Assembly (NCBI GenBank): GCA_963664015.2
Contig: CAXXLF010000002.1
Span: forward strand, 1,664,001 to 1,728,000
Reading direction: 5' to 3'
Length of the DNA: 64,000 nucleotides
Source of the DNA: Candidatus Binatia bacterium
GTDB taxonomy: Bacteria > Desulfobacterota > Binatia > UBA9968 > CAXXLF01
Shown: piece by piece, positions 10,211 through 64,000 of the stretch
Layout: each line of letters begins with the position of its first letter
Position numbering within the stretch: position 1 is the first letter of the stretch
Notes under the pieces: model-generated
Seen by the model: the letters and a program-made list of their open reading frames with translations, nothing else
The model's database searches: none
Told to the model about the DNA's origin: nothing
Made by a program: the position numbers and the translations under genes

Positions 10211-10673
10211 AAAGCGCAAACCGCATGGCGCTTTGCGCAAAGCGTCATGACAATTAACGGCAGATTTTCGCTGATTATCGCAGATACGGATTCGGATATT
10301 TCACCGCAGAGATCGCAGAGAGCCGGAGGTAAGAGATCAGAAGTCAGAAATACTGTAAGCAGTATGCAGCAGAAACATTGCTAAGGACAGAATGCAATTA
10401 TTGTTTTGTTTGTCGGGAGACGACGACAAACAAAAAGGTGAGCACTTTTGCCCAATGGTCGTCTCCCGATTGGGCAAATATCCTTATCTTTACGAGCTTG
10501 GCGTCTTGGCGCGAAAATAGCTTTTCTTTGGTTATCTGTGGATATCTGCGTGTATCTGCGGTTAAAGAATCCGGATCCGAATACTGAGAACTAACAATCC
10601 GGACGCTATGCGGCCTGCGGTCCAGGCTGCCTACTGCAAACTGCCCACTGTCTTTCTCTTCCCCTCAGGGCTG
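10211..10673. repeat. Composite intergenic repeat element, locus 1
   Basis: Palindrome CGCTTTGCGCAAAGCG (10229-44); TTAACGGCAGAT (10254) paired with ATCTGCGGTTAA (10565); twin hairpins 10404-10478; end module CTGCCTACTG..CTCTTCCCCTCAG shared with other loci. Confidence 0.85.
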
Positions 10674-58913: not shown

Positions 58914-60470
58914 ATGACAGAATCGTTTCCAGGAATACTAACCCTACTCCTCGGCATCCCGCTGCTTGGCGCCGTGGTGATGGGTTTCATCCCCCGGAAC
59001 AGCAAGGGAAGCCTGTTTGGGTGCGCTCTGTTCTTTACCGTTTTGGATTTGCTCTGGTCACTCAACATTCTTTCCCGGTTCAATTCCACGCTGGGGGAAA
59101 TGCAGTTCGTGGAGCGGGTTGCCTGGATTCCGAGTTACGGGGTCGAGTATTTCATCGGGATTGACGGTCTCAGCCTCTTCCTCATTTTGCTCACTACTCT
59201 TCTCGGTCCCATCGCCATCCTGGCATCCTGGAGCATCGAGGAGAAGGTCAAAGAGTTCCTCCTGTTCATGCTCATCCTTCAAACCAGTATGCTGGGAACC
59301 CTGCTAGCCCTGGACCTCTTTCTCTTTTACGTTTTTTGGGAGGCCATGCTCATCCCCATGTATTTCATTATCGGGGTATGGGGCGGGCCTCGCCGCATCT
59401 ATGCGGCCCTCAAGTTCGTTATCTACACCATGAGTGGGAGCCTGATCATGCTAATTGGGATCATCGCACTGGTAACGACGGCGAGCCAACTCAACCAGAC
59501 TACCAGTTTCGACCTGCTGCGGCTTTACGACCTACGGCTTTCCTTTGAACAGCAGATGTGGCTTTTCCTGGCATTCTCCCTCTCCTTTGCTATCAAGGTT
59601 CCCCTTTTTCCTTTTCACACCTGGCTTCCCGATGCCCACGTTGAGGCACCTACAGCCGGTTCCGTGATCCTGGCGGGGGTCATGTTAAAGATGGGCACTT
59701 ATGGTTTTCTGCGCTTTGCGATCCCGCTTTTTCCCGACGCCGCCCGTGCGGCCGCTCCGTTCATCTCGACCCTTGCCGTCATTGGCGTCGTGTACGGGGC
59801 TCTTGTCGCAATGATGCAGAGTGATCTCAAAAAACTTGTGGCCTATTCGTCTGTGAGCCATCTGGGTCTGGTCATGCTGGGGCTCTTCGCCCTCAATCTG
59901 CAGGGAGTACAAGGGGCCGTCTATCAGATGATCAACCACGGCTTGTCCACTGCCGCCCTTTTCCTGGCCGTCGGGATGATCTACGAGAGACGCCATTCAC
60001 GGATGATAGCCGACTTTGGTGGCTTGTGGAAAGTGATCCCCCTCTTCTCCGTCATCTTTCTTGTCATCACGCTCTCTTCCATCGGCCTTCCCGGGCTCAA
60101 CGGGTTCGTCGGCGAGTTTTTGATTCTCCTCGGCGCCTTCAAGAACATGACCCCATGGGCCGTCGTTGCCGCCAGCGGGATCGTCCTGGCCGCCATCTAT
60201 ATGCTCTGGATGTACCGCCGGGTGTTCTTCGGCCCCATCTCCCCAGAGAACCAAACCCTTAAAGATGTGGGGACACGAGAGATCGTGGTGCTCGTTCCTA
60301 TCCTTGTACTGATCGTCTTTATGGGGATTTATCCCAAGCCCATTTTGAATCGCATATCGCCGTCGGTGGAGAAGATCATTGCCCGAATGGAGCGGCCCAC
60401 TACCCTGTCCCGCCAAACGCTAGAGGAACGACGAACAGCAGAGAAAGAGGGGGCTAGGCATGCAAATTAA
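58914..60470 (+). CDS. nuoM: Complex I subunit M (cluster 2)
   Basis: FWEAMLIP and PFHTWLPDAHVEAP motifs. Confidence 0.97.
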   Translation: MTESFPGILTLLLGIPLLGAVVMGFIPRNSKGSLFGCALFFTVLDLLWSLNILSRFNSTLGEMQFVERVAWIPSYGVEYFIGIDGLSLFLILLTTLLGPIAILASWSIEEKVKEFLLFMLILQTSMLGTLLALDLFLFYVFWEAMLIPMYFIIGVWGGPRRIYAALKFVIYTMSGSLIMLIGIIALVTTASQLNQTTSFDLLRLYDLRLSFEQQMWLFLAFSLSFAIKVPLFPFHTWLPDAHVEAPTAGSVILAGVMLKMGTYGFLRFAIPLFPDAARAAAPFISTLAVIGVVYGALVAMMQSDLKKLVAYSSVSHLGLVMLGLFALNLQGVQGAVYQMINHGLSTAALFLAVGMIYERRHSRMIADFGGLWKVIPLFSVIFLVITLSSIGLPGLNGFVGEFLILLGAFKNMTPWAVVAASGIVLAAIYMLWMYRRVFFGPISPENQTLKDVGTREIVVLVPILVLIVFMGIYPKPILNRISPSVEKIIARMERPTTLSRQTLEERRTAEKEGARHAN

Positions 60471-61944
60471 TCAGGTTAATCTGGTTAATCCGGACACCCT
60501 TCCCTCCCTCGCGGAGCTTTGGCTGGCCGGTCCGGTCATCGAGATTCTGATCGCTGCCTTGACGGTGCTTCTCTTGGACCTCTTTTTAAAGGATGAGGAC
60601 AAGGGAGCCCTGACTTGGATCAGCGTCCTGGGCCTGGCCACTGCCGGAGCCATGTCCCTGGTCCTCTGGCCAAGTGGCGAAGGCATCCTTTTCAATAGCC
60701 TTCGCATCGACGGCTTCAGCCTATTTTTTACCAATCTCCTTCTCGCTGCGGCCATACTGACATTGCTGTCCTCGGTCCATTACCTGAAAGAGACAAACAT
60801 TCAGAAGGGCGAGTTCCACGCCCTGATTCTCTTCAGCACCTTTGGTATGATCCTCATGGCTATGGCCAACGACCTGATCCTGTTTTTTCTCGCACTCGAG
60901 ACCATGTCCATCGGTGTCTATGTCCTCACCGGCATGTGGCACCAGCGAAGCGCGGCGGGAGAGGCCGCCATGAAATATTTCTTGAACGGCGCCTTCGCCT
61001 CCGGTTTTCTCCTCTACGGTATCGCCTTGATCTATGGGGCAACCGGATCCACCAACCTGGAGCGTATCGGAGATTATCTTTCCCAAAACCCCTTACAGGG
61101 GAACTTTCTTTTAATTACCGGTGCCGTGCTTCTATTGATTGGCCTCGCCTTCAAGGTAGCCGCAGTCCCCTTCCATTTCTGGGCTCCGGACGTTTATGAG
61201 GGTGCGCCGACTCCAGTCACCGGGTTCATGGCCGTAGCGGTCAAGGCCGCCGCCTTTGCTGGTTGGATCCGCATCGTAATGCATCAACTGAGTCCCCTGG
61301 AAGACCAATTGTCCTTTATCCTCTGGGCTATCGCGATCCTTACGATGACGGTCGGTAACCTCCTGGCCCTGACCCAGTCCAGTGTCAAACGAATGCTTGC
61401 CTATTCGAGCATCGCTCATGCGGGGTATCTCCTCATTGGGGTTATCGCAGGAAACGACATGGGAGGTTCGGCTGTACTCTTTTATATGCTGGTTTACACC
61501 CTCATGACCCTGGGGGCCTTCGGTGTCCTGATGGCCCTTCAGCAAGCGGGCAAGGACAACGACTCGTATCAGGCCTTTGCGGGTATCGGTTTCAAGCACC
61601 GCTTCTTAGCCCTGGCCATGTCGATCTTCATGCTCTCATTGGCCGGGTTTCCCCCTTTTGGAGGGTTTACCGGAAAGTTTTACCTATTTCGCTCGGCCGT
61701 TGAATCCGGCCACACGGTCCTTTCCGTCATCGCTGTTTTGAACAGCGTATTGTCCGTGGCCTATTATCTACGGGTCATCGTGATGATGTATATGCAGGAA
61801 GGACGGGGAGAAGCGAAACCCTTTCGCCGCTCCCCCTACCTCTACACGGCCATCGCAATCACGGCCCTTGGCATCCTCTGGCTAGGCGTAGCGCCGGATT
61901 TCCCATTGGAGCTCAGTCGAATCTCCATCGCCTCGCTCCGCTGA
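60460..61944 (+). CDS. nuoN: Complex I subunit N (cluster 2)
   Basis: EAAMKYF, PFHFWAPDVYEGAP and KRMLAYSSIAHAGY motifs. Confidence 0.96.
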   Translation: MQINQVNLVNPDTLPSLAELWLAGPVIEILIAALTVLLLDLFLKDEDKGALTWISVLGLATAGAMSLVLWPSGEGILFNSLRIDGFSLFFTNLLLAAAILTLLSSVHYLKETNIQKGEFHALILFSTFGMILMAMANDLILFFLALETMSIGVYVLTGMWHQRSAAGEAAMKYFLNGAFASGFLLYGIALIYGATGSTNLERIGDYLSQNPLQGNFLLITGAVLLLIGLAFKVAAVPFHFWAPDVYEGAPTPVTGFMAVAVKAAAFAGWIRIVMHQLSPLEDQLSFILWAIAILTMTVGNLLALTQSSVKRMLAYSSIAHAGYLLIGVIAGNDMGGSAVLFYMLVYTLMTLGAFGVLMALQQAGKDNDSYQAFAGIGFKHRFLALAMSIFMLSLAGFPPFGGFTGKFYLFRSAVESGHTVLSVIAVLNSVLSVAYYLRVIVMMYMQEGRGEAKPFRRSPYLYTAIAITALGILWLGVAPDFPLELSRISIASLR

Positions 61945-62008
61945 TTCAGACCCACAAAGAGGAACAAGAGCTGAGTAGGTCCGCAAAGCGCTCAGAGCCG
62001 GAGATCAG

Positions 62009-62042
62009 AAGTCAGCTGCTCTACCAACTGAGCTACCAGCCC
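62009..62042 (-). pseudogene. tRNA 5' half (positions 1-34), not an intact tRNA
   Basis: GGGCTGG TA GCTC AGTTGGTA GAGC A GCTGA CTT gives the acceptor 5' strand, D-arm and 5' anticodon stem; no contiguous 3' half. Confidence 0.8.
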
Positions 62043-62227
62043 ACAAACGCCAACACGATATACCAAAAAATACCAAACCTGTCGACGACCTTTAATAGCG
62101 TATACCTGCGTATACTTTTTATAGACCAGAAAAACTTAAGTGAATAAATCTATAAGTTATTGATATTATTATCTTATTATAGATATTGTGACAGGTTTAA
62201 CAAATTGACCCGGTGATTATAAGTCAG
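62009..62227. mobile_element. 212-bp att-like insert carrying split tRNA pieces
   Basis: AAGTCAG direct repeats at 62009-15 and 62221-27; IHF consensus at 62153-65; GCGTATAC tandem at 62098 and 62108. Confidence 0.65.
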
Positions 62228-62629
62228 AGGTCAAAGGTCAGAATGATACTAGGCAGTGAGCAACAAATCAGGACAGAGTGGTAAGTGCCAAGGGTGGAGC
62301 GAACATGAAGCTATCAACTAATAGCTAAATAGGCGCAAAAGAGATCAAAAACTCGAATAACGAAAACCTAAATCCGAAATAAATTCAAATGGCAAAATGC
62401 CTAATTTCCAAACTAGAGAATTGAATAGTTTGGGACTTTGGTAATTTAAATTTGGGTATTGATTAAAGTTTCGGAATTCGGATTTTGGATTTGATGTCTA
62501 TCTGCAGTTAAAGAATCCGAATTCTGAGAACTATAGTCCGGACGCTATGCGCCATCCTCTTTGCGCTTTGCTTTCTTGCTGCCTACTGCAAACTGCCTGG
62601 TGTCTTACTCTTCCCCTCAGCGCTTTGCA

Positions 62630-63472
62630 TTAGATGCCAAACAGGGCGTGGGCGTTGTGGCTGCTGGCCGTGGCAATCTCGTCGGTTGCTAGCCCCTTGA
62701 CGGTGGCAATCACTTCCGCCACCTGGCGCACAAAGGCAGGTTCGTTGCGTTTGCCACGATGGGGAACGGGGGCAAGGTAAGGAGAGTCTGTCTCCACCAG
62801 AATTCGGTCCATGGGGACCCTTTGGACCACCTCTCGCAACGGCGCGGCGTTCTTGAAGGTAATGATACCAGTAAAGGAGAGGTAGAAGCCTAGATCCAAA
62901 AAGGTCTGGGCCGCATCCCAATCGCCGGTAAAGCAGTGAATTACACCCCTGAGACGACCCTCCCCTTCGTTACGGATCAAAGCGGCAGCCTTCCGATGGG
63001 CATCGCGGACGTGCACAACAAGGGGGAGATCCACGCCGCGGGCCATATGAATAAACTCGATGAAAACCCTCTCTTGAACGTCATGGGGAGAATGGTCGTA
63101 ATAGAAGTCCAAGCCGGTTTCTCCCACGGCCACGACCTTGGAATCCTCCGTTAGCCTCTTCAAGCGATCCAGGTCATCCGGGCTAACGTCGCGGGCGTCG
63201 TGGGGATGCATCCCGACAGTGGCAAAGAGCCCCGGGTAACGCCCACACAGCTCCAAACCGGTCTCATTAGTAGATAGCGGACCGGCACCGCCAACGACGA
63301 TAATTTTTTCTACCCCGGCGCTTTTCGCCCGTTGGATGACCTGATCCACATCCTCCATGAACTCTTCAGATTGAATATGGCAATGGGTGTCAATCAGAGA
63401 AGCCCTCGGTTCGTCTGGGTTGTCCATTTTATTCATTTCGTCTGCTGGGTCTATTGGGTCATGCCCTGTCAT
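62630..63472 (-). CDS. tatD: TatD-family DNase (start uncertain: 63472, 63436 or 63427)
   Basis: IDTHCH, GMHPH, VGETGLD, VHVRDA, HCFTG and ETDSPYL motifs. Confidence 0.95.
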   Translation of the reverse strand: MTGHDPIDPADEMNKMDNPDEPRASLIDTHCHIQSEEFMEDVDQVIQRAKSAGVEKIIVVGGAGPLSTNETGLELCGRYPGLFATVGMHPHDARDVSPDDLDRLKRLTEDSKVVAVGETGLDFYYDHSPHDVQERVFIEFIHMARGVDLPLVVHVRDAHRKAAALIRNEGEGRLRGVIHCFTGDWDAAQTFLDLGFYLSFTGIITFKNAAPLREVVQRVPMDRILVETDSPYLAPVPHRGKRNEPAFVRQVAEVIATVKGLATDEIATASSHNAHALFGI

Positions 63473-63526
63473 TGGGTTTTTAAACTCAACGAAATAGACC
63501 AAACGAGCCCATAGACAAGATAGACT
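63409..63526. repeat. 9-mer-unit inverted repeat at the metG-tatD junction
   Basis: TTCGTCTGG..TTCGTCTGC TGGGTCTAT facing ACGAAATAGACCAAACGAG..TAGACAAGATAGAC. Confidence 0.6.
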
Positions 63527-64000
63527 AGCTTGTCTCGATCCTCGGAAAGAGGACCTTGGGCGGATTGACCTGATGGTCGGGTTGGAAGAGGGAACCCCAA
63601 GGGATATCAGCAGTGGCCTTGTTCTCGGGAAGTGCCAGCAGGGAACGAATCTCACTGGCCGTCTCGGGGAGAAAGGGGGTCAGGAAATCGGACGTCATGC
63701 GCAGCGATTCCAGGAGATGGTGCAGGATCTCACCGACCCTTTTGTGCTTTTCCGGATCCTTCATCAGGACAAAAGGTGAGGTCTGGACGACATACTGATT
63801 GGTCCGGTCCAAGGCCCCCCAGATCGATTCCAAGGCCCGGTGAAAATAGAGGCCCCCCATATGTCGCTGGATATCCCGACCGACCTGTAAAAAGCAATCC
63901 CGGAGTTTGAGATCTTCCGCGGCCCATGAGCCGCTCAACGGCTGAACCTTGCTACTGAAGTACTTCTTCTGCATGGCTAGGACTCGACTGACCAAGTTAC
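63525..64000 (-). CDS. metG: Methionine--tRNA ligase, C-terminal part (runs off window)
   Basis: NLVSR..M, NQYV..PF, PFLPET and LFPRIE anticodon-binding-domain motifs; metG-tatD synteny. Confidence 0.88.
   Translation of the reverse strand, partial: NLVSRVLAMQKKYFSSKVQPLSGSWAAEDLKLRDCFLQVGRDIQRHMGGLYFHRALESIWGALDRTNQYVVQTSPFVLMKDPEKHKRVGEILHHLLESLRMTSDFLTPFLPETASEIRSLLALPENKATADIPWGSLFQPDHQVNPPKVLFPRIETS

What the first reader, a model, noticed from the sequence alone, without database searches (positions are those of the whole stretch)
62009..62227. 212-bp integrase-less mini-element with a circularly permuted tRNA-like att site, inserted into a heptad repeat
Seen: AAGTCAG is directly repeated at 62009 and 62221. 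Removing the insert restores the heptad run GAGATCAG-AAGTCAG-AGGTCAAAGGTCAGA (compare GAGATCAGAAGTCAGA at about 10333). Circularising the insert joins, on the - strand, GGGCTGGTAGCTCAGTTGGTAGAGCAG-CTGACTT-ATAATCACCGGGTC. That is a tRNA 5' half, an anticodon loop CT-TAT-AA and a variable loop, with no T-arm. The AT-rich interior has an exact IHF consensus (TATCAATAACTTA, 62153-65, - strand), 10-bp-period tandem repeats (GCGTATAC at 62098/62108; TACCAAA at 62061/62071) and an inverted pair AAACCTGTC/GACAGGTTT (62075/62190). Known: tyrosine integrases use 7-bp overlaps, often in tRNA anticodon arms, together with arm sites and IHF. Inference: a minimal non-autonomous attP-only circle mobilised in trans, integrated at a secondary site that mimics the tRNA core. 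The implied UAU (Ile) anticodon is rare, so the real target could be a Lys, Thr or Ile2 tRNA.
Basis: partly seen in the sequence, partly recalled or inferred. Interest (0 to 1): 0.85.

Follow-up and report, generated by a model that had tools for sequence, protein, structure and literature searches.

The report
Fossil tRNA-like integration scar in repeat
A single 212-base insert carrying the front part of a lysine-type tRNA gene sits inside a short repeat between two housekeeping genes; it looks like the old scar of one foreign DNA circle recombining there, and nothing shows that it still moves.

Summary
AAGTCAG stands at 62009 and 62221. The - strand 62042->62009 is positions 1-34 of a Lys(CTT)-type tRNA. 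The 14 bases left of the second AAGTCAG continue that tRNA to position 48, with no T arm.

Two corrections:
- The direct repeat is 21 nt and imperfect (61995-62015 vs 62207-62227, 17/21), not 7 nt.
- The source tRNA is the lineage's own Lys(CTT) type (25/27 and 18/21). The UAU anticodon is probably decay.

Uninterrupted paralogues show that one canonical heptad array was split. The junction is in register with a tRNA-like stretch of the array. Genome-wide, the right-junction 21-mer matches best the left junction and the real tRNA-Lys(CTT), both 17/21. Site choice was therefore sequence-directed, which fits an integrase acting at a secondary site.

No evidence of mobility was found:
- The interior is single-copy in this genome.
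- It was not found in 40 relatives, 400 genomes of the phylum, phages or plasmids, and eight exact-pattern scans of three public collections found nothing.
- Contigs of four runs showed no circle or empty-site joint.
- A roughly 7% diverged strain also carries the insert, so it is old.

Best reading: an integrase-less scar, comparable to a cis-mobilizable element, left by a 5'-type tRNA-gene attP (a known minority class). The attP-only mini-circle idea is not excluded but has no support.

The parts
60460..61944 (+). nuoN-type gene (494 aa) that ends 50 bp before the repeat; it is not disturbed
   Evidence: ORF; Pfam Proton_antipo_M, E 2.8e-75
61983..61994 (+). Left flank of the heptad-array repeat family (GCAAAGCGCTCA...)
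   Evidence: 28-nt match at 89% to the paralogue at G000:C2:1918623. The same motif precedes other arrays.
61995..62015 (.). Left copy of the 21-nt direct repeat: array start GAGCCGG plus heptads AGATCAG and AAGTCAG. It is the attL-like junction. Read on the - strand it mimics tRNA positions 28-48.
   Evidence: D1. 15/21 to tRNA-Lys(CTT) positions 28-48. One of the two best genome-wide matches (17/21) to the right copy.
62016..62042 (-). tRNA-like positions 1-27 (acceptor 5' strand and D arm) of a Lys(CTT)-type tRNA. Together with 62009-62015 it reaches position 34.
   Evidence: 25/27 to the tRNA-Lys(CTT) of this genome and of relatives. BLAST hits only real tRNA genes elsewhere in the genome.
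62043..62206 (.). AT-rich interior (29% G+C; genome 53.5%), unique in the genome, no ORF of 40 aa or more
62060..62077 (+). ATACCAAA twice, 10 bp apart
   Evidence: D6
62098..62115 (+). GCGTATAC twice, 10 bp apart, in helical phase (40 bp) with the first pair
   Evidence: D7; two such pairs occurred in a fraction 0.011 of simulations
62153..62165 (-). Match to the IHF consensus WATCAANNNNTTR
   Evidence: 1 match; fraction 0.015 of simulations had at least one
62176..62203 (-). Sigma-70-like promoter match (TTGTTA, 16 nt, TATAAT; 10 of 12) that reads towards the tRNA-like part
   Evidence: a consensus match only
62207..62227 (.). Right copy of the 21-nt direct repeat, the attR-like junction. 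Read on the - strand it is tRNA-like positions 28-48.
   Evidence: D1. 18/21 to tRNA-Lys(CTT) positions 28-48. A variant strain in X1 has T62218C and T62220G, which raises identity with the left copy to 19/21.
62228..62261 (+). Rest of the split array (AGGTCAA, AGGTCAG) and the family's right flank
   Evidence: 39-nt match at 79% to G000:C2:1572332-1572294; alignment A1
62630..63655 (-). tatD-type gene that converges on the intergenic region
   Evidence: Pfam TatD_DNase, E 7.4e-88

Best explanation
The 212-bp unit is the fossil of one old, sequence-directed integration.

A circular foreign DNA carried a tRNA-Lys(CTT)-derived attachment site of the '5' type'. That site holds tRNA positions 1-48: the whole 5' half plus the anticodon arm and variable loop, with no T arm. 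It recombined with a chromosomal heptad array whose complementary strand happens to mimic tRNA positions 28-48.

The crossover lay in or next to the shared CTGACTT. It produced the two hybrid junctions: left, array then tRNA 27->1; right, tRNA 48->35 then array.

A tyrosine integrase acting at a secondary site is the most likely catalyst (inferred). The integrase and any cargo are gone, or were never on this piece. About 190 bp remains: the tRNA-like 5' part and its AT-rich arm or promoter region.

Today it is an integrase-less pair of att-like junctions lying harmlessly between two convergent genes. It is comparable to a cis-mobilizable element, and nothing shows that it still moves.

Shown: the anatomy, the in-register similarity, the uniqueness and the age. 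Inferred: the circular donor, the integrase, and the loss of the rest.
For: 1. **One array was split.** Its left and right flanks match paralogues that hold uninterrupted arrays of 3-4 heptads.
2. **The junction is in register.** tRNA positions 1-27 (25/27 to Lys(CTT)) abut array sequence that matches positions 28-48 at 15/21. The right junction matches positions 28-48 at 18/21.
3. **The site was chosen by sequence.** Of all 21-mers on both strands of the 3.5-Mb genome, only two match the right-junction 21-mer at 17/21: the left junction and the real tRNA-Lys(CTT) gene. Seven more match at 16/21.
4. **Scattered mismatches around a short exact core fit protein-recognised att sites.** They do not fit pure microhomology joining (inference).
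5. **The architecture has precedents in print.**
   - Passages of PMC4383910 say attP is about 250 bp and carries a fragment of the target tRNA gene. They count 159 islands with a 5' tRNA-gene fragment against 3760 with a 3' fragment, among 3919 islands. 2083 islands have anticodon-centred sites.
   - Passages of preprint 10.1101/2020.11.02.365908 give flanking repeats of 15-221 bp, mostly 20-25 bp.
6. **The interior looks foreign and attP-like.** It is 29% G+C against 53.5% for the genome, and carries phased direct repeats and an IHF-consensus match.
7. **It is old and inherited.** A variant allele with 8 differences in 113 nt still bridges the right junction (X1 record 3).
8. **It is integrase-less.** There is no ORF of 40 aa or more inside. 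None of the 12 PF00589 matches in the genome lies in the window or beside a tRNA-Lys gene.
Against: - No donor, no complete relative and no second copy was found, so the circular donor and the integrase are inferences.
- The exact shared 7 bases cover tRNA positions 28-34, not the anticodon loop 32-38. In the reference the two loops differ at 2 of 7 positions. That is not the classic arrangement of identical overlaps flanked by the anticodon stem.
- The right 14-mer also looks like an ordinary array start. It is 10/14 to the left copy, and 12/14 in the X1 variant. It is also 28/33 over a longer stretch to the array at G000:C2:1477004. It could therefore be a duplicated piece of the target rather than tRNA-derived.
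- The joined anticodon stem has a C-C mismatch, read.
- If this is a deletion remnant, it is odd that what is left is just about the size of an attP.
Confidence: 0.5

Rival explanations
1. One reading: the 212 bp is the whole element. It would be an attP-only mini-circle with no genes, excised and integrated in trans by an integrase encoded elsewhere, sitting here at a secondary site.
For: - The unit is about the length of an attP, given as about 250 bp in PMC4383910 (passage).
- It contains a tRNA-like core, phased repeats and an IHF-consensus match, and nothing else.
- The site was chosen by sequence.
- In the X1 variant the two junctions share a longer exact stretch, so excision could still be possible there.
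- One X1 contig leaves the reference at 62016, the left edge of the insert. I could not see how it continues.
Against: - It is a single copy in the genome.
- The real tRNA-Lys(CTT) gene carries no such insert.
- It was not found in 40 relatives or 400 genomes of the phylum, and only tRNA-part or short matches turned up in phages and plasmids.
- All 8 exact scans found nothing.
- The contigs of 4 runs show no backward (circle) joint and no 212-bp skip. Contigs drop rare forms, so this is weak evidence.
- The junction repeats differ at 4 of 21 positions in the reference.
- No integrase lies beside a tRNA-Lys gene.
Confidence: 0.1
2. Non-site-specific capture. A linear fragment (the first 27 nt of a tRNA gene plus about 165 bp of its AT-rich upstream region) was copied or ligated into a break in the array during repair or template switching. 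A 21-bp stretch of the target was duplicated in the process. On this reading the right 14-mer is a decayed copy of the array start, not tRNA.
For: - The 21-nt repeat is 17/21 identical, and 19/21 in the X1 variant. That is the pattern expected if both copies began identical and then drifted.
- The right copy aligns as a normal array start.
- AT-rich DNA upstream of stable-RNA genes is ordinary (general knowledge). A promoter-like match lies in it.
Against: - I know of no bacterial mechanism that makes a 21-bp target duplication (recalled knowledge, not a search).
- The fragment ends exactly where the array takes over the tRNA register (15/21), which random capture does not explain.
- Three of the four bases at which the right copy differs from the left are the tRNA base. 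By my own arithmetic the chance of that is about 0.1.
- No donor was found.
Confidence: 0.25
3. Chance or local decay. Either two separate heptad arrays happen to flank a decayed native tRNA gene and its promoter, or a heptad element inserted into a native tRNA gene.
For: - The intergenic region is a patchwork of dispersed repeats.
- Rfam's tRNA model can be stretched over 61967-62042 at 22.5 bits.
Against: - It is the array that is split, not the tRNA. The left piece lacks the family's right flank and the right piece lacks its left flank.
- The order of parts is permuted: the 3' piece lies upstream of the 5' piece.
- 0 of 19 related nuoN loci hold a tRNA gene. In G003 nuoN and tatD are about 17 bp apart, and G002 and G004 have no tRNA there.
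- The Rfam hit is below the cut-off, with E 0.17.
Confidence: 0.05

Closest known systems
Genomic islands and prophages that integrate into tRNA genes by tyrosine integrases, in the minority class with a 5' tRNA-gene fragment and an anticodon-centred site (Islander database, PMC4383910; passages seen)
   Same: - A tRNA-derived segment lies inside the element next to the crossover.
- Direct repeats of about 20 bp flank it.
- The crossover region is at the anticodon arm.
- The 5' part of the tRNA is on the element side, as in 159 of 3919 Islander islands.
- The unit is about the size of an attP.
   Different: - It has no integrase gene and no cargo, and is 212 bp long. Islander rejects candidates under 2 kb.
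- The target is not a tRNA gene but a look-alike in a heptad repeat.
- No intact tRNA is regenerated.
- The repeats are imperfect (17/21).
Cis-mobilizable elements (CIMEs): decayed integrative elements that kept attL and attR but lost their integration and transfer genes (definition in PMC5704250, passage seen)
   Same: An integrase-less stretch bounded by attL-like and attR-like repeats, best read as the leftover of an integrated element.
   Different: - As I recall, described CIMEs are kilobases long, sit at the primary site, and have recognisable parent ICE or IME families.
- Here the leftover is only about 190 bp, sits at a secondary site, and has no known parent.
- Whether the junctions can still recombine was not tested.
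Partial tRNA genes left by mobile-element integration (van der Gulik et al. 2023, PMC9897764; passages seen)
   Same: A tRNA gene fragment that gene finders ignore or mis-score, and that marks an integration junction.
   Different: In the passages I saw, their examples are 9-23 kb elements lying between a full tRNA gene and its partial copy. Here there is no full gene, and the fragment is the 5' part.
Lambda-type attP with arm sites and IHF sites, and integration at secondary att sites (recalled textbook knowledge; secondary sites also appear in the listing, e.g. PMC2297512, title and abstract only)
   Same: - A core flanked by AT-rich arms with phased repeats and an IHF-consensus match.
- A target that resembles the primary site only in part.
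   Different: - No protein binding was tested.
- The exact shared core is offset from the anticodon loop.
- No integrase is known for it.

Membership tests
Integrative island or prophage targeting a tRNA gene (Islander signature) | Tyrosine integrase gene inside the element | tested here: not met
   No ORF of 40 aa or more lies between 61967 and 62561. None of the 12 PF00589 matches in the genome lies in G000:C2:1664001-1728000.
Integrative island or prophage targeting a tRNA gene (Islander signature) | Flanking direct repeats that contain part of a tRNA gene | tested here: met
   The 21-nt repeat is 17/21 identical. The right copy is 18/21 and the left copy 15/21 to tRNA-Lys(CTT) positions 28-48.
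Integrative island or prophage targeting a tRNA gene (Islander signature) | A regenerated full tRNA gene at one end and its displaced fragment at the other | tested here: not met
   ARAGORN finds 0 tRNA genes in the window. The Rfam tRNA model scores 22.5 bits against a cut-off of 29. The target is a heptad array.
Integrative island or prophage targeting a tRNA gene (Islander signature) | Length of 2-200 kb with cargo genes | tested here: not met
   The repeat copies are 212 bp apart.
Integrative island or prophage targeting a tRNA gene (Islander signature) | An excised circle or an empty site exists | tested here: inconclusive
   Contigs of the 4 runs laid, out of 17 listed, show no circle joint and no 212-bp skip. 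Contigs drop rare forms. One X1 contig diverges at 62016, and I could not see how it continues.
Cis-mobilizable element (CIME) | [quoted passage not shown] | tested here: met
Cis-mobilizable element (CIME) | Has retained functional attL and attR | tested here: inconclusive
   Repeats are present but differ at 4 of 21 positions, or 2 of 21 in the X1 variant. Function cannot be tested here.
Cis-mobilizable element (CIME) | Derives from a recognisable ICE or IME | tested here: not met
   The interior has no relative in phages or plasmids, in 40 relatives, in 400 genomes of the phylum, or in the exact scans.
MITE or insertion sequence | Terminal inverted repeats, a short target duplication and many copies | tested here: not met
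   No inverted repeat lies at the ends of the insert. The interior is single-copy.
Circularly permuted tRNA gene (known from some algae; recalled) | A complete 3' half (T arm and acceptor 3' strand) upstream of the 5' half, so that a full tRNA can be made | tested here: not met
   Only positions 35-48 lie upstream. AT-rich DNA follows where the T arm should be.

The most novel reading that the evidence does not exclude
The 212 bp is a complete, gene-less integrative element, a bare attP of the rare 5' tRNA-gene type. It would ride on a tRNA-Lys-specific integrase supplied in trans, and would be the smallest integrase-dependent mobile DNA described. The lineage's heptad arrays would act as look-alike landing sites for such integrases.
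Probability: 0.1. Interest if true: 0.7.

Novelty: new member of a known kind. Interest (0 to 1): 0.33.

Why it matters
It shows that a tRNA-targeting recombination event can land in a non-tRNA look-alike, here a 7-bp tandem repeat that mimics the anticodon arm, and leave an attP-sized, gene-less scar. Island finders cannot see such a scar because it has no integrase, no full tRNA gene, and is under 2 kb. If scars like this are common, tRNA-like 5' fragments next to short repeats could be mined as a record of past integrations. They could also point to the rare 5'-type attachment sites. As it stands this is one neutral fossil in one genome, of interest mainly to people who study integrases and genome archaeology.

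Tried and rejected
- **Other copies in the own genome.** BLAST of 61990-62250 and of 61900-62700 found none. Only tRNA genes, heptads and dispersed repeats matched.
- **Relatives.** In G002, G004 and G003 nuoN and tatD are neighbours, but their spacers cannot be aligned with this one. They give no true empty site. G004 has an uninterrupted heptad array in its spacer, which is only suggestive.
- **Metagenome NuoN loci.** 249 of 311 candidate stretches encode a relative and 80 were kept. The best is 72% identical, too distant to help.
- **tRNA genes near nuoN.** ARAGORN found 0 in 19 related loci.
- **Phages and plasmids.** Distant BLAST gave only the tRNA part or short AT-rich matches. No record covered 80% of the query.
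- **400 genomes of the phylum.** 34 of 401 (G000 included) had a match at E <= 0.01. All but G000's own were 19-45 nt in the AT-rich part, which I read as chance.
- **Exact scans.** All 8 were empty: genome contigs twice, metagenome contigs once, viral contigs five times. They find only perfect matches, so they are weak tests for diverged copies.
- **Structured RNA or folded single-stranded DNA.** z = -1.6 for both folds. Rejected.
- **A full degenerate tRNA at 61967-62042.** 22.5 bits against a cut-off of 29, E 0.17. The 7/7 acceptor pairing has about a 0.1 chance by my own arithmetic. Rejected.
- **Terminator for nuoN or tatD.** None predicted.
- **Xer/dif-like site.** I considered this from recalled consensus only. 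The fit was poor by eye and it was not tested.
- **An element at the real tRNA-Lys(CTT).** The spacer between tRNA-His and tRNA-Lys is 615 bp here against 10-55 nt in relatives. I saw no tRNA fragment, no AT-rich block and no integrase in it, and left it there.
- **Run X2.** Apart from pieces on the tRNA-like part, which match many organisms' tRNA genes, its listed contigs lie only at 62513-62700. Nothing lies on the rest of the insert, which says nothing either way.
- **X17 contig that skips 61844-62084.** Its ends are not the insert's ends, and another X17 contig covers 61908-62057 intact. Unexplained; not used as evidence.
- **Supplementary tables** of PMC9897764 and of the Klebsiella preprint, which may list 5'-type fragments, were not available.

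Full report
**Setting.** The window is G000:C2:1664001-1728000 of a 3.5-Mb genome in two contigs, 53.5% G+C. The finding lies in the 685-bp spacer between two convergent genes:
- a nuoN-type gene (60460-61944, +; Proton_antipo_M, E 2.8e-75);
- a tatD-type gene (62630-63655, -; E 7.4e-88).

The spacer is a patchwork of repeats. Dispersed repeats with 3-16 other copies in the genome fill almost all of 62349-62629. Stretches 62047-62210 and 62262-62337 are unique.

**Observation.**
- AAGTCAG stands at 62009 and 62221.
- The - strand from 62042 to 62009 reads as positions 1-34 of a tRNA. ARAGORN calls no tRNA in the window, and Rfam's tRNA model reaches only 22.5 bits against a cut-off of 29.
- The IHF-consensus match, the two pairs of 8-mers at 10-bp spacing and the 9-bp inverted pair are at the stated places.
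- In first-order Markov simulations of the interior, an IHF match arose in a fraction 0.015 of cases, two phased 8-mer pairs in 0.011, and a 9-bp inverted pair in 0.14. The first two are mildly unusual and the last is not. All are post-hoc tests.
- The sequence is not an assembly artefact. One 30-kb contig of X15 covers 61700-62700 with no difference. An X17 contig bridges the left junction. Two X1 contigs bridge the right junction.

**What the repeat really is.** The repeat finder shows that the direct repeat is 21 nt long: 61995-62015 against 62207-62227, 17 of 21 identical, 212 bp apart.

The heptads belong to a dispersed family.
- A strict pattern finds 49 places with two or more tandem units.
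- A looser pattern finds 33 places with three or more units, a few of them unrelated.
- Members share a left flank (...CGCTSAGAGCCGG), 3-4 heptads and a right flank (AAAKAYAG.AAGCAGTG...).
- The paralogue at G000:C2:1918623 has both flanks around an uninterrupted array. Window 10333 and C2:1572 kb are similar.

At our locus the left flank and two heptads lie left of the insert. Two further heptads and the right flank lie right of it.

**The tRNA-like sequence.**
- Seven of the eight stretches fetched from relatives carry an identical tRNA-Lys(CTT). The eighth carries a tRNA-Asn.
- The fragment matches Lys(CTT) positions 1-27 at 25/27, and the same against this genome's own copy.
- The right-junction 21-mer matches Lys(CTT) positions 28-48 at 18/21. 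For positions 35-48 the match is 12/14 to Lys and 13/14 to the relative's Asn.
- The left-junction 21-mer, which is array sequence, matches positions 28-48 at 15/21, and positions 35-48 at 9-10/14.
- Binomial tails at p = 0.25 are 3e-6 for 12/14 and 3e-4 for 10/14.

So joining the ends does give a Lys-type tRNA from position 1 to 48 with no T arm. The array itself imitates the anticodon arm and variable loop, in register with the fragment that abuts it.

A scan of every 21-mer on both strands of the genome against the right-junction 21-mer gave exactly two matches at 17/21: the left junction, and positions 28-48 of the real tRNA-Lys(CTT) gene. Seven more matched at 16/21, among them tRNA-Thr(UGU) and tRNA-Lys(UUU). 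By my own arithmetic about one such match is expected by chance in a genome this size. The occupied site is therefore the best non-tRNA look-alike in the genome, and the site was chosen by sequence.

**Mechanism.** Dispersed mismatches around a short exact core, in register over 21 bp, are what protein-recognised att sites look like. RecA-type homology needs longer perfect matches, and microhomology joining does not care about the flanks (general knowledge; inference).

A reciprocal crossover between a circle carrying the tRNA-like segment and the array gives exactly the two hybrid junctions seen.

The layout has precedents in print.
- According to passages of the Islander paper (PMC4383910), attP is about 250 bp and carries a fragment of the target tRNA gene. 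159 islands have a 5' fragment against 3760 with a 3' fragment, among 3919 islands. 2083 have anticodon-centred sites.
- A Klebsiella preprint (10.1101/2020.11.02.365908, passages) reports flanking repeats of 15-221 bp, mostly 20-25 bp. It also reports islands at the 5' end of a tRNA-Arg gene.

An attP holding positions 1-48 is the mirror image of the usual 3'-restoring site, so the missing T arm is expected rather than odd.

**What speaks against a clean integrase story.**
- The exact 7 bases cover positions 28-34, not the loop 32-38.
- In the reference the two loops differ at two positions.
- The joined anticodon stem has a C-C mismatch.
- The right 14-mer also resembles an array start. It is 10/14 to the left copy. 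Over 33 nt it is 28/33 to the array at C2:1477004, whose first heptad also ends in AT.
- In a variant allele in the seawater run X1 (record 3; 8 differences in 113 nt) the changes T62218C and T62220G raise the repeat to 19/21.

That pattern fits a duplicated target that later drifted. It also fits later conversion towards the common heptad. I could not decide between these. I know of no bacterial mechanism that duplicates 21 bp of target (recalled, not searched), and pure capture does not explain the register. I therefore put fragment capture at 0.25 and integration of a circle at about 0.6: 0.5 for a fossil and 0.1 for a live mini-element.

**Mobility.** None was found.
- The interior is single-copy in the genome.
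- It did not match in 40 relatives.
- Among 400 other genomes of the phylum, 33 had only 19-45-nt AT-rich matches.
- Phage and plasmid collections matched only the tRNA part or short stretches.
- Eight exact-pattern scans of three collections found nothing.
- None of the 12 integrase-domain matches in the genome lies in the window or beside a tRNA-Lys gene.
- I laid 4 of the 17 runs listed. Their contigs show no 212-bp skip and no backward joint. Contigs drop rare forms, so this is weak evidence.
- The diverged X1 allele shows that the insert predates strain divergence.

One lead remains. The best-covered X1 contig (record 1; 1343 nt, depth 15.9, 7 differences over 61700-62016) stops matching at 62016, the first base of the insert, and runs on for 803 letters that I could not see. 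It may be an empty or differently filled site.

**Function now.** Probably none. There is no ORF, no significant fold (z -1.6) and no terminator. A good sigma-70-like match on the - strand (62203->62176, 10 of 12) could drive a transcript through the tRNA-like part and antisense to the nuoN 3' end. This was not tested.

**Comparison with known kinds.** It works like an integrated tRNA-gene-targeting element seen after decay. [quoted passage not shown] It fails the Islander membership tests for an integrase, a regenerated tRNA and length, and no parent family is known. It is not a MITE, since it has no terminal inverted repeats and is single-copy. It is not a permuted tRNA gene, since it has no T arm. 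Partial tRNA genes as integration scars are well described (PMC9897764, passages).

**Verdict.**
- The att-like reading is supported in structure.
- The mobile mini-element reading is unsupported.
- The most likely account is a one-off fossil of a 5'-type Lys tRNA-gene attP at a look-alike site.
- Interest is modest, at 0.33. The bold reading, a 212-bp gene-less integrative element, keeps about one chance in ten.

Noticed in passing
window 61998-62015, 62221-62241 and 10333-10347; genome-wide, e.g. G000:C1:444-454 kb and C2:1454-1500 kb: A dispersed family of short tandem heptads (AGRTCRG, 2-5 units) with conserved left and right flanks. 49 places fit a strict pattern for two or more units, and 33 fit a looser pattern for three or more. 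G004, from another genus of the family, has such an array in its own nuoN-tatD spacer. Their origin and role are unknown.
   Followed up: partly
window 62337-62494: An AT-rich MITE-like repeat of about 160 bp with 16-nt terminal inverted repeats (62363-62378 / 62477-62492, 88%). It has 5-11 other copies in this genome, and copies at 76-83% in all four other genomes of the family, with shorter matches in some genomes of the order.
   Followed up: partly
window 62541-62629 and 61983-61997: A third dispersed repeat with 6-16 other copies, carrying the motif GCAAAGCGC. The motif stands in inverted orientation at both ends of the spacer: 61983-61995 against 62616-62628, 12 of 13 complementary.
   Followed up: no
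window 61844-62084 (run X17): One low-depth contig (736 nt, depth 4.7) joins 61843 to 62085. That removes the nuoN 3' end, the left repeat, the tRNA-like part and 42 nt of the interior. Another contig of the same run covers 61908-62057 intact. It is either a real deletion variant in that culture or an assembly chimera.
   Followed up: no
window 62016 (run X1): The best-covered contig of a seawater metagenome (1343 nt, depth 15.9, 98% identical over the nuoN end) stops matching exactly at the left edge of the insert and continues for 803 unseen letters.
   Followed up: no
G000:C2:1432463-1433077: The spacer between tRNA-His and tRNA-Lys(CTT) is 615 bp here. In the relatives where both genes lay on the fetched stretch it is 10-55 nt. 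It has ordinary G+C content, and I saw no tRNA fragment in it.
   Followed up: partly
G000:C1:655214-655543 and other places listed: Most of the 12 integrase-domain matches lie beside tRNA or tmRNA genes: Ala, Val, Arg, Ser, Thr and tmRNA. One, a short 165-aa frame, lies on the 5' side of tRNA-Ser(UGA) and may be another 5'-type site.
   Followed up: no
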